A stretch of DNA of 55,663 nt from the IMG/VR virus record IMGVR_UViG_2713896798_000010, positions 1-55,663 of that record, one strand, 5' to 3'. Below are positions 36,001 to 39,000 of this stretch, one piece after another (the first letter of the stretch is position 1; each line of letters starts with the position of its first letter). Source of the stretch: a virus (taxonomy: Duplodnaviria; Heunggongvirae; Uroviricota; Caudoviricetes). Made by a program: the position numbers.

Positions 36001-39000
36001 CAGTCAGTACCAACATTATCCTGCTGGTGAAATCCATCATCACCATCACTAAAAGCAGGATCACAACAGCAAGCAGACACAGTTTATAAAACAATGTTCA
36101 GAAAACGCATTCAGCATGCCTAAGGTTCTATTCCTACGAATAGCCAACTTGCAACTTAAAATATTATTTATGCAGCCAATTAAATTCTGGTCCTTACAAT
36201 ATCAACCTGAAGATTCTTATCTTGTGCTGATTGATAAATCACAAACCTTTTACTACCTGCATTGAAAGAAGTAGACAAAATCAGACAATTATCATAACGA
36301 GCAAGAACATAATACCAACCATCATTATAATTAATCATTTCATATTCTTTCTTAAACTGCGGTTTGTAATATCCTGTCAGAAATGAAAAAAGCCAGAAAT
36401 ATGCCACAAAAGCAATCATCACAATCTCAAAAAAATGTTTTTTTATAAATGGCTTATCATAGAAGCATGATACCGATAAAAATCGCCCATAAGATCTTAT
36501 CGAAATTGTAACCGCCAGCGCAATCGCTGCTGACAGTAGCAAAAGAGGTACCTGAATCTTCTGTCTCAATATAGAAAACTCAATAATTGCCGGCACAAAC
36601 AATAATTCCACAGCAAAATAAAGGCGAAATACATTTAGCTCTTGCATAGAATGTTTTCTTTTCACTGCGAAAAAGAATACAACACCAATACCCCAACCGA
36701 TAAGAAATATAGCAATGACGATAACTGCAAAAAATAAACTTCTGGCAACATCATCAACACCTGCACCTACAATCCACCATGGGAAGCCGTAGTAAAAAGA
36801 AGTACCCCATCCATAGAAATAAGCACTCCCCCATCCAAGGCATCCCATGTAGGCAATAAAAAGTGAAGAACTCCTGAGCAGCGCACCATCCTTCATAACC
36901 ACCCCAATACAAGATGATAACATTGGCTTACAACTCATAACAAAAGCAATTCAATGCCGTCAAGAGGTTACAGGCTAAAAAAACTCTATTACATTGCAGT
37001 CAGCATGTTTACTACACAAATACAATTCAGAGCATAAAAACTACTCGGCGGCAGGTTATTGAGACTCATCAATGACATGTAAAAAACGCCCATTATTGGT
37101 GTCAAGTTTCCCCAAAGTTATTCAAAAAGTCAATATTATGCCGTTAATATGTTGCCATCCGTGGCAATCATGGCGCTAACGTGTGATCGCATTCAAAATG
37201 TTGTCTGCGATTGACTCTTCCTTGTGGCATTGCACAACCAGAGCGTCATACAGCGGCTTAACAGTGCGTGACCAGGTGGGTTGGGTAAGGTTTGGGATTA
37301 GCATCGTCACAGCGCGATATGCGGCGCTTGCTGGCATTCTTGAATAACCGACGCCTTTACATCTTCCGCACTCTTTCTCAGCAACTATCCCCCACTGCTC
37401 TGTTTTGGCTATATCAACCGCACGGCCTGTACCGTGGCAATCTCTGCATCTTGCGCCCGGCGTAGCGGCACTACGGCAATAATCCGCATAAGCGAATGTT
37501 GCGAGCACTTGCAGTACCTTTGCCTTAGTATTTCCTTCAAGCTTTGCCACGCCACGGTATTTCCCCGATACCTTGTGTGCAAATTGCATCAGATAGTTGA
37601 TAGCCTTTTGTTTGTCGTTCTGGCTTAGTTCATGCTTACCGCAGAATGCAGCCATTCCGAATCCGGCTTGTGATTGCGCCATCCCCATAGCAGCCATCAC
37701 ATCAGTACCGGAAAGAGAGTCAGAAGCCGTGGCCCGTGGTGAGTCGCTCATCATCGGGCTTTTTGGCGAATGAAATTTAGCTACGCTTTCGAGTCTCATG
37801 CGCCTTCTCCCTGTACCTGAATCAATGTGAGGTTTCCGCAGAACACTGCGCCAGTATCGATATACATCTGGTTGGCAAATTTGAGTGGTTTCACTGCTGG
37901 CGTATGACCAAAGATGAACGTGTCCGCGCCTTTGATTTCTTTCACGATCCCGTCTTGTGAGTTGCTGATTCGTTCGCGGTTCCAGATTACCTGCTGATGA
38001 TCAACTGGCTTTCCAAACTCGTATTTATCACAAGGATAATCGGCGTGGCAGATGACATATTTTTTTCCTTTACTCACCAGTTCGATGATTAACGGAAGTT
38101 CATCTGCTTTATGGGCAAGAGCTTTAGCCAGAATTTCTTTGTCGTAATCGAGATTAAAGAACCAGCCACCGCCATTAAGCAGCCAGTGATTGACGTTTCC
38201 ACGCTCTGATAAGCCATCAATCATCATTTGCTCATGGTTTCCACGTACAGCTCTGAACCAGGGGAATGTGATTAATTCCAGGCATTCTACGTTCTCTGTA
38301 CCGCGATCAACCAAATCGCCCACCGAGATAAGCAGGTCTTTTTTGGTGTCGAATCCTATCGTCTCCAGTTTTTTCATCAGGTTCGTGTAGCATCCGTGCA
38401 GATCGCCAACTACCCAAATATTTCGGTATTTGCTGCCATCAATTCTTTCGTAGATATTCATGCAACCTCACTTCTGCTGTTTCGCAGTTTTTTAAAGTTC
38501 GATTGAATTTGCTTTAGCGCTGGATACAATTCGCGGAATAATGCCTGTGAGCGGTTAGCATAATCCCACAGCCATACAAGGCTGTCTGTTTCTTTTGCGG
38601 AAAGCCCGTTGAGCTTCTTCTCTTGTTTGCCAGTATTTTTCTCGCACTGGCTGAAATAGCAGTCTTCCAGTTTTTCGAACACTTCCCACGCCTGATCGGT
38701 TTCGAGCATTTTGGCGTGACGGGCTGCTCCGCGTTCTGTCCAGAGGATGAGGGAGCGGGCTTTCGGGGAAATTTGTAACCCTCTTAAAGATGGTTGCAAA
38801 TTTTGTGAGTTACTTAAAGTAACCCGCAAAATTTTCAACTCATCACCAACAACCTTGAAAAAGTGTTTACCCTCAACAAAACGCTCGGAATTACGGGTGT
38901 AATTTACTTTGATGTTGTTGATCTCGGTACAGTAAAGCTGTGCCAGTAACTCGGTAGTGATAACGGGAATTTGGTTGTGTGTAATTGGGGAAAGAGTTTC

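What the first reader, a model, noticed from the sequence alone, without database searches (positions are those of the whole stretch)
36180..36938. Polytopic membrane protein moron at the stx-equivalent position between Q and the lysis genes
This is a very AT-rich 252-codon ORF encoding several Trp/Phe-rich hydrophobic segments followed by a soluble tail, downstream of Q and upstream of nanS and the holin. It occupies the slot that carries stx in Stx phages and is followed by an intrinsic terminator (35735..35761). No stx genes or tRNA genes are present. The function is unknown; a lysogenic-conversion or superinfection-exclusion membrane factor is plausible.
Basis: inference. Interest (0 to 1): 0.6.

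Follow-up and report, generated by a model that had tools for sequence, protein, structure and literature searches.

The report
TfpB/STM1630-family membrane cargo gene in prophage
The ORF is a real, selected gene for a five-helix inner-membrane protein of the named but uncharacterised TfpB/STM1630 family, carried as cargo in the prophage slot that holds Shiga toxin genes in related phages; it is already catalogued (phage 434, E. coli O157:H7) and its function is still unknown.

Summary
A 252-codon ORF lies at 36180..36938 (-), with 36% GC against 51% for the window. It sits between a lambda-type Q/pR' module and the nanS-p/holin block. Stx1a phages with the same downstream block carry stx1AB in this place. 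Three details need correction. The true start is probably Met15 (36896, 238 aa). A DUF3927 gene lies between the ORF and the quoted terminator. That terminator is the 3' end of an STnc100-family sRNA, which is convergent with AgvB.

The protein belongs to Pfam PF27470 "TfpB", which PGAP names "STM1630 family protein"; it is also PHROG 1521. It is 99.6% identical to a gene of phage 434 and occurs in 692 of 5426 complete E. coli genomes. dN/dS is 0.06-0.17. Relatives sit next to eltAB on ETEC plasmids, on Shigella pINV, next to sseJ in Salmonella, next to lpxR in Citrobacter and in other prophages, between pilin genes in Moraxella, and as single genes in Pasteurellaceae and Neisseria.

The model has five TM helices and a C-terminal beta domain. 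Conservation is concentrated on the side predicted to face the periplasm, and no invariant acidic or histidine residue is present. No fold, defence-system or lysis homology was found. The most likely role is a horizontally mobile envelope or host-interaction factor (lysogenic conversion), but the mechanism is not resolved.

The parts
36180..36896 (-). Probable true CDS (238 aa): TfpB/STM1630-family (PF27470) inner-membrane protein with five predicted TM helices and a C-terminal beta domain
   Evidence: ORF. PGAP uses the 238-aa start and the name 'STM1630 family protein' for the near-identical WP_001299184.1. All homologues carry PF27470, which the neighbour tables name TfpB. Homologues start at the Met15 equivalent. 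dN/dS is 0.06-0.17. Structure model.
36897..36938 (-). 14-codon N-terminal extension of the maximal ORF, probably untranslated 5' leader; it contains the GGGGTGG Shine-Dalgarno-like motif 5 nt before Met15
   Evidence: The extension is absent from all homologues. The sequence was read directly. Alternative starts are used in phage 434 (247 aa) and phage 2B8 (238 aa).
36914..36975 (-). Conserved upstream region with a sigma-70-like site (TTGTTA-18-TATCAT, with TG) and a TTGACG box: a candidate promoter of the cargo gene itself
   Evidence: Promoter-like site at 36943..36914 (the number of such sites in the region does not exceed shuffles). Nucleotide homology to the ETEC-plasmid and ExPEC-island copies continues upstream of the start codon to 36967-36975. 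Function was not tested.
37089..37175 (-). End of the lambda/P22-type Q module, holding the pR' late promoter and qut region; the cargo slot begins just downstream
   Evidence: 92% identity to phages with lambda/P22-type Q over window 37250..37089. Annotated 'promoter' (HK446) and 'qut site' (Emek) features lie under the match, and homology stops at 37089. The placement of the hexamers (TTGACT...GAAACT) comes from my reading and my memory of lambda pR'.
37176..37799 (-). Antiterminator Q (lambda type, 207 aa)
   Evidence: PF03589, E 1.2e-57; PHROG 127.
35927..36094 (-). Second cargo gene: DUF3927 / 'TciB-like' small membrane protein (55 aa)
   Evidence: PF13064, E 1.4e-13; PHROG 1470. It co-occurs with the TfpB-like gene only in the closely related E. 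coli / E. albertii cassette.
35729..35919 (-). STnc100-family sRNA gene; its 3' hairpin and T-run (35761..35740) are the 'terminator' of the finding
   Evidence: Rfam RF02076, 144.7 bits, full length. Terminator scan.
35667..35728 (+). AgvB anti-GcvB sRNA gene, convergent with STnc100
   Evidence: Rfam RF02702, 96.5 bits. Terminator-like site at 35703..35722 on the + strand.
33669..35519 (-). nanS-p-like sialate O-acetylesterase (DUF1737-SASA-DUF6645), the first gene of the block shared with Stx phages
   Evidence: Pfam hits. 98.7% identity to yjhS of Stx1a phages.
33169..33375 (-). Class II holin, the start of the lysis cassette
   Evidence: ORF. The homologous 434 gene is annotated as a pinholin, and PGAP calls it a 'class II holin'.

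Best explanation
The ORF is a functional cargo ('moron') gene. It encodes a 238-aa inner-membrane protein of the TfpB/STM1630 family (Pfam PF27470). Together with a DUF3927 gene it fills the variable slot (about 35896-37088) between the Q-pR' module and the sRNA/nanS-p/lysis block. Stx1a phages carry stx1AB in that slot.

It is not part of the phage's replication, assembly or lysis machinery. The family moves as a single AT-rich gene between prophages, virulence plasmids and chromosomal islands of animal-associated Proteobacteria.

Inferred way of working:
- Topology is N-terminus in, five TM helices, C-terminal beta domain in the periplasm.
- The conserved parts are TM1, the aromatic/glycine loop (AYxYGWG...YG[FY]PWW), the ARSL start of TM2 and the beta domain. 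All face the periplasmic side.
- No acidic or histidine residue is invariant. The protein therefore more likely binds or modulates an envelope component (a membrane machine or a lipid-linked glycan) than catalyses a reaction.
- By analogy with Salmonella STM1630, it would be H-NS-silenced, induced under host-like conditions, and would restrain motility and intracellular growth.
- In this prophage it should also be made in quantity after induction, because it is the first gene downstream of pR'.

Shown here: gene reality, family membership, slot, mobility, and the lack of known-fold or defence homology. Inferred: topology, the non-enzymatic binding role, regulation, and the lysogenic-conversion phenotype.
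For: Reality of the gene: dN/dS is 0.06-0.17, and the frame is intact in 10 homologues of 46-99% identity.

Family membership:
- All 108 hits carry PF27470, which the neighbour tables name TfpB.
- A profile of the family hits the Moraxella 'protein tfpB' at E 1e-64.
- PGAP names the near-identical protein 'STM1630 family protein'.

Slot.

Mobility and association with virulence loci:
- divergent to eltAB on ETEC plasmids, in all 4 places shown, with 1285 index blocks;
- Shigella plasmids, 106 records;
- beside sseJ in Salmonella;
- beside lpxR in C. rodentium;
- beside lpxR, with or without pmrD, in prophages with an Stx2-like backbone;
- beside iroBC and bor;
- in a Klebsiella island holding an STb-like gene.

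The gene is AT-richer than its flanks in all 19 contexts examined.

Structure and conservation: model with pLDDT 81.5. Conservation is concentrated in TM1, loop 1 and the start of TM2, while the cytoplasmic loops are variable. K/R-rich loops lie after TM2 and TM4.

Data on the Salmonella member:
- H-NS-bound; expressed in SPI-2-inducing medium and in macrophages; its deletion replicates more in macrophages; signature-tagged mutants are attenuated in calves and chickens (PMC6785131 S1 Text);
- hypermotile deletion (PMC4219756);
- co-regulated with pagD, ugtL, pagK and lpxO (PMC2639726).

About 75 nt of upstream sequence is conserved across contexts.
Against: - No member of the family has a demonstrated molecular function.
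- The Salmonella phenotypes are modest. The motility effect came from a screen, and a follow-up study re-made the deletion without its result being visible in the text I retrieved.
- The Salmonella protein is only 46% identical, so transfer of its phenotype is uncertain.
- Association with virulence loci may only reflect shared AT-rich 'landing zones'.
- The topology rests on the positive-inside rule and an AlphaFold model, not on experiment.
- The promoter-like site is no more than chance would give in this AT-rich DNA (3 sites found against 5.4 expected).
- Nothing here shows expression in the lysogen.
Confidence: 0.55

Rival explanations
1. Superinfection exclusion or anti-phage factor. An inner-membrane protein with a periplasmic domain, expressed from the prophage, blocks DNA entry of other phages, in the manner of P22 SieA, HK97 gp15 or T4 Imm.
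For: It lies in a prophage cargo slot, a frequent home of exclusion genes. Its inner-membrane topology has conserved periphery-facing elements. In Moraxella the family member sits between pilin genes, and type IV pili are common phage receptors (general knowledge).
Against: There is no hit to any PADLOC model for this protein or consistently for 44 family members, and its PHROG has no known function. Many family members are outside phages: on plasmids, in islands, and as single genes among housekeeping genes in Mannheimia and Neisseria. The Salmonella member is regulated with the SPI-2/PhoP virulence regulon. PADLOC and PHROGs hold few exclusion proteins, so the absence of hits is weak evidence.
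Confidence: 0.15
2. Accessory factor of type IV pilus or type II secretion machinery, as the family name suggests. It would bind pilin or pseudopilin subunits stored in the inner membrane and tune assembly or retraction. On ETEC plasmids this could link to T2SS-dependent LT secretion.
For: The namesake lies inside the Moraxella pilin locus, arranged as partial pilin, then TfpB, then a convergent full pilin gene. The distant branches are confined to Moraxella, Neisseriaceae and Pasteurellaceae, groups known for type IVa pili and competence (general knowledge). The conserved surface faces the periplasm, where pilin globular domains sit. A homologue is adjacent to eltAB.
Against: Outside Moraxella no pilin or secretion gene is adjacent in any context examined. 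A profile of the non-enteric branch found no Pseudomonas TfpX/TfpZ or Dichelobacter FimB proteins. The single-sequence search of 1.84 billion representatives returned only 56 proteins; the ten distant ones whose sources were looked up and the named ones come from the four groups. No function has been published for Moraxella TfpB, as far as I recall.
Confidence: 0.1
3. Late-phase accessory of lysis or toxin/virion release. It would be made only after Q antitermination and would act on the envelope to time or assist lysis or cargo release.
For: It is the first gene downstream of pR', with no strong terminator in between. It lies upstream of the holin and shares the slot with AB5 toxins.
Against: It has no similarity to holins, antiholins, spanins or endolysins. 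Family members are conserved where no phage lysis genes exist. Closely related phages do without it and carry stx1AB instead.
Confidence: 0.07
4. Immunity or tolerance protein against a membrane-acting toxin (colicin, CDI or T6SS effector), in line with the 'TciB-like' label of the neighbouring gene.
For: Polytopic inner-membrane proteins are typical immunity proteins for pore-forming toxins (general knowledge). The neighbour is PHROG 1470, 'TciB-like inhibition of cell division or resistance to colicin'. The Klebsiella copy is near a two-partner secretion pair.
Against: No cognate toxin gene is adjacent in any context. The 'Tci' label comes from phage P1 gene names and, as far as I recall, was never tested. 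DUF3927 accompanies the gene only in the close E. coli cassette.
Confidence: 0.05

Closest known systems
Phage 434 gene CPT_434_68 'putative membrane protein' (OL657226) and the same gene in phage 2B8 and E. coli O157:H7 prophages
   Same: 99.6% protein identity to 434 and 97.5% to 2B8. The cassette is the same: TfpB-like gene, DUF3927, nanS-p, holin. The gene is present in 692 of 5426 complete E. coli genomes, with a median of 2 copies.
   Different: 434 has a different Q (Q82-like), and homology begins only at window 37057. The sRNA region 35530-35865 is not shared with 434. The annotated start codons differ (247 against 238 aa).
Salmonella Typhimurium STM1630 (SL1344_1560), PGAP 'STM1630 family protein'
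   Same: 46% identity over the full length, the same 238-aa size and motifs. It is AT-rich. It is the only member with experimental data: H-NS-bound, induced in SPI-2 medium and macrophages, with virulence and motility phenotypes.
   Different: It is chromosomal, between steB and sseJ, and not in a prophage or downstream of a Q/pR' module. No DUF3927 partner is present.
Moraxella bovis/lacunata TfpB (namesake of Pfam PF27470)
   Same: Same family: profile E 1e-64 and 29% identity. The alignment runs end to end and the AYxYGW...PWW...ARSL motifs are conserved.
   Different: It lies between pilin genes of the pilin-inversion region, whereas no pilin gene is near the window gene. Its function is likewise unknown.
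ORF divergent to eltAB on ETEC enterotoxin plasmids (e.g. WP_001424997.1, pUMNK88_Ent)
   Same: 59% identity, same length, and about 75 nt of conserved upstream sequence. Like the window gene, it sits beside, or in the place of, an AB5 toxin operon.
   Different: It is plasmid-borne and flanked by IS elements, with no Q or lysis genes.
Stx (stx1AB/stx2AB) cargo of Stx-converting phages
   Same: Same genomic slot and the same downstream block (nanS-p at 98.7% identity, AgvB/STnc100 region, holin). Late-transcript expression is expected in both.
   Different: There is no sequence or fold relationship. This is a membrane protein, not a secreted AB5 toxin.

Membership tests
Pfam PF27470 TfpB / PGAP 'STM1630 family protein' | Significant match to the family model | tested here: met
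   All 108 homologues, including proteins 94-100% identical to the query (P0001-P0004), carry the precomputed PF27470, which name TfpB. WP_001299184.1 at the same locus in E. coli TB354 is named 'STM1630 family protein'. The model itself is absent from the local Pfam and NCBIfam copies, so the window protein could not be scored directly.
Pfam PF27470 TfpB / PGAP 'STM1630 family protein' | Homology to the namesake proteins (Moraxella TfpB, Salmonella STM1630) | tested here: met
   STM1630 (P0074) scores E 8e-71 at 46% identity over 100% of the query, and its locus beside sseJ was confirmed. Moraxella 'protein tfpB' (P0207) scores E 1e-64 against the profile.
Pfam PF27470 TfpB / PGAP 'STM1630 family protein' | Shared architecture and motifs over the full length (about 240 aa, five TM helices, C-terminal beta domain) | tested here: met
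   End-to-end alignments A1-A3. Invariant residues are A25, Y26, W30, W40, A51, G175 and F218. Model.
Type IV pilus accessory gene (as implied by the name TfpB) | Linkage to pilin or pilus-assembly genes | tested here: not met
   Pilin genes flank the gene only in Moraxella. None is near it in the window or in the other contexts.
Type IV pilus accessory gene (as implied by the name TfpB) | Effect on piliation | not testable with these tools
   This needs genetics. No paper on it is held in the library.
Phage moron (Hendrix/Juhala sense) | Present in some and absent from otherwise homologous phages, at a module junction | tested here: met
   Stx1a phages share the downstream block up to 35895 and carry stx1AB instead. 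The Q-pR' homology ends at 37089.
Phage moron (Hendrix/Juhala sense) | Base composition distinct from the neighbouring phage genes | tested here: met
   GC is 0.36 against about 0.5 in the flanks.
Phage moron (Hendrix/Juhala sense) | Own promoter and terminator; expressed from the repressed prophage | tested here: inconclusive
   A promoter-like site lies at 36943..36914 and upstream sequence is conserved, but such sites are no more frequent than in shuffles. The nearest strong terminator belongs to the STnc100 sRNA. Expression cannot be tested here.
Known anti-phage defence / superinfection exclusion proteins | Match to a defence-system model | tested here: not met
   PADLOC gives 0 families for the protein. 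Among 44 family members there are only two isolated weak hits.
Phage lysis proteins (holin, antiholin, spanin, endolysin) | Match to a lysis family, and restriction to phage lysis cassettes | tested here: not met
   No Pfam or PHROG lysis hit. Homologues are conserved outside phages.

The most novel reading that the evidence does not exclude
The TfpB/STM1630 family is a so far unrecognised class of horizontally mobile envelope modulators shared by mucosal pathogens: EHEC prophages, ETEC LT plasmids, Shigella pINV, the Salmonella sseJ island, Citrobacter, Moraxella, Neisseria and Pasteurellaceae. It has a fold without solved relatives. It would act at the periplasmic face of the inner membrane on a conserved machine (for example pilin/pseudopilin assembly, flagellar function or lipid A/LPS remodelling) to adapt the cell to the host. 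Its repeated placement beside AB5 toxin operons and lpxR would then reflect a functional link, not chance.
Probability: 0.25. Interest if true: 0.65.

Novelty: already known. Interest (0 to 1): 0.4.

Why it matters
The gene occupies the prime late-operon cargo position of lambdoid prophages in EHEC O157:H7 and in the classic phage 434. Relatives of it sit beside LT in ETEC, on the Shigella virulence plasmid and beside sseJ in Salmonella, yet no member has a known molecular function. Linking these scattered 'hypothetical proteins' into one family points to a single tractable target. The gene can be deleted, and the Salmonella member already has infection phenotypes in the literature. Work on it could reveal a common envelope adaptation of enteric and respiratory pathogens. 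For annotation of this window the result is ordinary: a catalogued cargo gene, not a new system.

Tried and rejected
- **Local family libraries.** Pfam, NCBIfam and PADLOC gave no usable hit, and PHROG 1521 has no known function. The family name came only from precomputed Pfam labels.
- **Fold searches.**
  - Foldseek against PDB with the first, poor model (pLDDT 63) gave nothing below E = 2.
  - BFVD gave a best E of 0.23.
  - A PDB sequence-profile search gave 0 hits.
  - The afdb50 library was unavailable.
- **Literature.**
  - The 'TfpB' hits are PilB-like motors or chemistry.
  - The 'TciB' hits are Trypanosoma genotypes, or phage P1 gene names without functional data.
  - The old Moraxella papers are not held.
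  - Nothing was found on phage 434 with LpxR, or on DUF3927.
  - My guessed tag STM14_1968 was wrong; the right tag is STM14_1971.
- **Link to Pseudomonas TfpX/TfpZ or Dichelobacter FimB.** Not found by the profile of the non-enteric branch or by the scan of representatives. I could not test those sequences directly.
- **A tR' terminator between pR' and the ORF.** None passed the scan, and the leader folds no better than shuffles (z = -0.13). Only a 4-bp hairpin with U5, annotated as a terminator in 434, is present (and my reading).
- **DUF3927 as an obligate partner.** Rejected, because it is absent from all other contexts.
- **Essentiality of the Salmonella member.** Rejected by the authors themselves; the lack of transposon insertions is an H-NS artefact.
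Full report
**Observation**

The window holds a 252-codon ATG ORF at 36180..36938 on the minus strand. It is markedly AT-rich: GC is 0.364 (GC3 0.31) against 0.512 for the window, and the sliding GC falls to 0.30-0.39 across it. A hydropathy scan gives about five hydrophobic stretches, with F 10.3%, Y 6.7% and W 2.8%.

On the same strand, upstream, lie a NinI-type phosphatase ORF and a lambda-type antiterminator Q (37176..37799; PF03589, E 1e-57). Downstream lie four features:
- a 55-aa DUF3927 gene (35927..36094);
- a hairpin terminator;
- a DUF1737-SASA-DUF6645 esterase (nanS-p type, 33669..35519);
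- a class II holin (33169..33375).

No tRNA gene lies in 33000-38000. The hairpin with a T-run at 35761..35740 is real. The description is therefore confirmed.

**Corrections to the anatomy**

1. Every homologue begins at the residue aligned with Met15 (MxDxxLLRNSS...). PGAP calls a 238-aa protein, and a GGGGTGG motif lies 5 nt before that ATG. The likely CDS is 36180..36896.
2. Rfam places a full-length STnc100-family sRNA at 35729..35919 (-) at 144.7 bits, and the anti-GcvB sRNA AgvB at 35667..35728 (+) at 96.5 bits. The 'terminator following the ORF' is the 3' end of the sRNA gene. It lies about 420 nt and one gene further downstream.
3. No convincing tR' lies between pR' and the ORF.

**The slot**

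The 3' end of Q and the pR'/qut region are 92% identical to lambda/P22-type phages, with annotated 'promoter' and 'qut' features under the match. That homology stops at window 37089.

Stx1a-converting phages share the holin, nanS-p (98.7% identity), AgvB and most of STnc100 with the window, up to 35895. At that point they carry stx1B and stx1A.

The cargo slot is therefore about 35896-37088.

**Is it a real gene?**

Yes. Ten homologues of 46-99.6% identity are all intact. Pairwise dN/dS against the window gene is 0.06-0.17.

The identical cassette occurs in phage 434 (CPT_434_68, 'putative membrane protein'), in phage 2B8 and in O157:H7 prophages. It is found in 692 of 5426 complete E. coli genomes, with a median of two copies.

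**What family?**

Local Pfam, NCBIfam and PADLOC gave nothing, and PHROG 1521 has no known function. However, all 108 homologues from the large protein collection carry a precomputed PF27470 label, which the neighbour tables name TfpB. The newest PGAP annotation calls the near-identical WP_001299184.1 an 'STM1630 family protein'.

An exhaustive phmmer scan of 1.84 billion representatives found only 56 proteins. The distant ones (20-33% identity) come from Avibacterium, Actinobacillus, Gallibacterium, Pasteurella, Mannheimia, Aggregatibacter, Neisseria and Moraxella. A family profile hits the Moraxella 'protein tfpB' at E 1e-64. The family is thus small and confined to animal-associated Enterobacteriaceae, Pasteurellaceae, Neisseriaceae and Moraxella.

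**Contexts**

The gene travels alone.

| Organism or element | Identity to window gene | Position |
|---|---|---|
| ETEC enterotoxin plasmids | 59% | divergent to eltAB, in all four places shown |
| Shigella plasmids (106 records) | 57% | among IS elements |
| Salmonella (STM1630) | 46% | between steB and sseJ |
| Citrobacter rodentium | 65% | beside a split lpxR |
| Prophages with 933W-type Q and an Stx2-like backbone | 68% | the same slot, beside lpxR and sometimes pmrD |
| ExPEC island | 57% | beside iroBC and bor |
| Klebsiella island | 54% | with an STb-like gene, dsbA and a two-partner secretion pair |
| Moraxella | 29% | between a partial and a full pilin gene |
| Mannheimia, Neisseria, other Pasteurellaceae | 20-33% | single gene among housekeeping genes, at different places in different genera |

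Further points on context:
- Phage 434 also has lpxR just upstream of its Q.
- The gene is AT-richer than its flanks in all 19 contexts measured.
- The DUF3927 neighbour accompanies it only in the close E. coli / E. albertii cassette.
- Nucleotide homology to the ETEC and ExPEC copies runs about 75 nt upstream of Met15, to 36967-36975. This stretch covers a sigma-70-like site (TTGTTA-18-TATCAT) and a TTGACG box.
- That is compatible with the gene carrying its own promoter, although such sites are no more frequent than chance in this DNA.

**Structure**

With a 44-sequence alignment, AlphaFold gives pLDDT 81.5 and pTM 0.74. The model has helices at 3-36, 47-78, 89-111, 116-136 and 149-181, then five beta strands (187-232).

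K/R-rich loops follow TM2 (KRKH) and TM4. By the positive-inside rule this places the N-terminus in the cytoplasm and the C-terminal beta domain in the periplasm; this is an inference.

Conservation is concentrated in three places:
- TM1, the first periplasmic loop and the start of TM2 (S10, S11, A25, Y26, Y28, G29, W30, G31, G37, P39, W40, W41, A51, R52, S53, L54);
- the end of TM5;
- a few aromatic residues of the beta domain.

The cytoplasmic loops and TM4 are variable. No acidic or histidine residue is invariant, so a binding or modulating role seems more likely than catalysis (inference).

**Experimental knowledge of the family**

Only Salmonella STM1630 has data.
- It is H-NS-bound. Transposon libraries under-sample it for that reason, not because it is essential.
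- It is expressed in SPI-2-inducing medium and in macrophages in strain 4/74, and is silenced by two -10 box SNPs in ST313.
- Its deletion grows normally in LB and replicates more in RAW264.7 macrophages.
- Signature-tagged mutants were attenuated in calves and chickens (PMC6785131 S1 Text, PMC3632133).
- A deletion was hypermotile in a screen (PMC4219756).
- The gene clusters with pagD, ugtL, pagK, lpxO and SPI-2 genes in regulator-mutant profiling (PMC2639726).

No molecular function is reported. I found no accessible paper on Moraxella TfpB. From memory, it was described as an ORF in the pilin inversion region, with no function assigned.

**Interpretation**

The best-supported reading is a horizontally mobile, AT-rich cargo gene for an inner-membrane protein that acts on the envelope from the periplasmic face. 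This makes it a lysogenic-conversion or host-adaptation factor, not a phage-cycle gene.

In this prophage it is the first gene after pR' with no strong terminator in between. It should therefore be strongly made after induction, and possibly at a low level from pR' read-in or from its own promoter in the lysogen. All of this is inferred.

Rival readings have less support:
- Superinfection exclusion: no defence-model hit, many non-phage contexts.
- Pilus or T2SS accessory factor: pilin linkage only in Moraxella, and no TfpZ/FimB relatives found.
- Lysis or release accessory: no lysis homology, and the family is conserved outside phages.
- Toxin immunity: no cognate toxin gene is adjacent.

**Novelty and verdict**

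The gene, its family and its position are already catalogued (phage 434, O157:H7, PF27470, PGAP name), so the feature itself is already known and the window annotation is routine.

The remaining interest is that the family is wholly uncharacterised, has no recognisable fold relatives, and recurs at virulence loci of several major pathogens, including beside or in place of AB5 toxin operons. That justifies a moderate score of 0.4. A higher-interest possibility is that the family is a shared envelope modulator of mucosal pathogens; I put that at about 0.25 probability.

Noticed in passing
window 35667..35919: Two convergent sRNA genes lie between the cargo slot and nanS-p: an STnc100-family sRNA (35729..35919, -) and the anti-GcvB sRNA AgvB (35667..35728, +). 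Both score above the Rfam gathering thresholds, and Stx1a phages share them.
   Followed up: partly
window 35927..36094 (-): A 55-aa DUF3927 / 'TciB-like' small membrane protein gene lies directly downstream of the finding. It co-occurs with the TfpB-like gene only in the E. coli / E. albertii cassette.
   Followed up: partly
L039 5001-5714; L042-L045 6001-6714: On ETEC enterotoxin plasmids a 59%-identical family member lies about 870 bp from the heat-labile enterotoxin operon eltAB and divergent to it, in every place shown. STb is a few kb away.
   Followed up: partly
L046-L048 (about 4700-8500): Prophages with a 933W-type Q and an Stx2-like late backbone carry a 68%-identical family member in the stx slot. 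It sits with lpxR (lipid A deacylase) and, in one case, pmrD. C. rodentium has lpxR next to its copy, and phage 434 has lpxR upstream of Q.
   Followed up: partly
window 37030..37100 (-): No strong intrinsic terminator (tR') lies between pR' and the first late-region gene. There is only a 4-bp hairpin with U5, which the 434 record annotates as a terminator. pR' transcripts might therefore read into the cargo genes without Q and stop at the STnc100 terminator.
   Followed up: partly
window 40616..41596 (-): A 326-aa ORF looks to me like an IS5 (InsH) transposase inserted in the nin region of the prophage. It overlaps the end of a 210-aa HNH-like ORF. This is my recognition of the sequence; it was not tested with a family search.
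   Followed up: no
L006 (JAIITD010000172.1): A 3-kb contig labelled 'MAG: Veillonella sp.' encodes a protein 100% identical to the window ORF product and also carries the DUF3927 gene. It is very probably a mis-binned E. coli prophage fragment.
   Followed up: no
L015/L016 and L017/L027: Aggregatibacter actinomycetemcomitans genomes carry two family copies at different chromosomal places, among what look like housekeeping genes.
   Followed up: no
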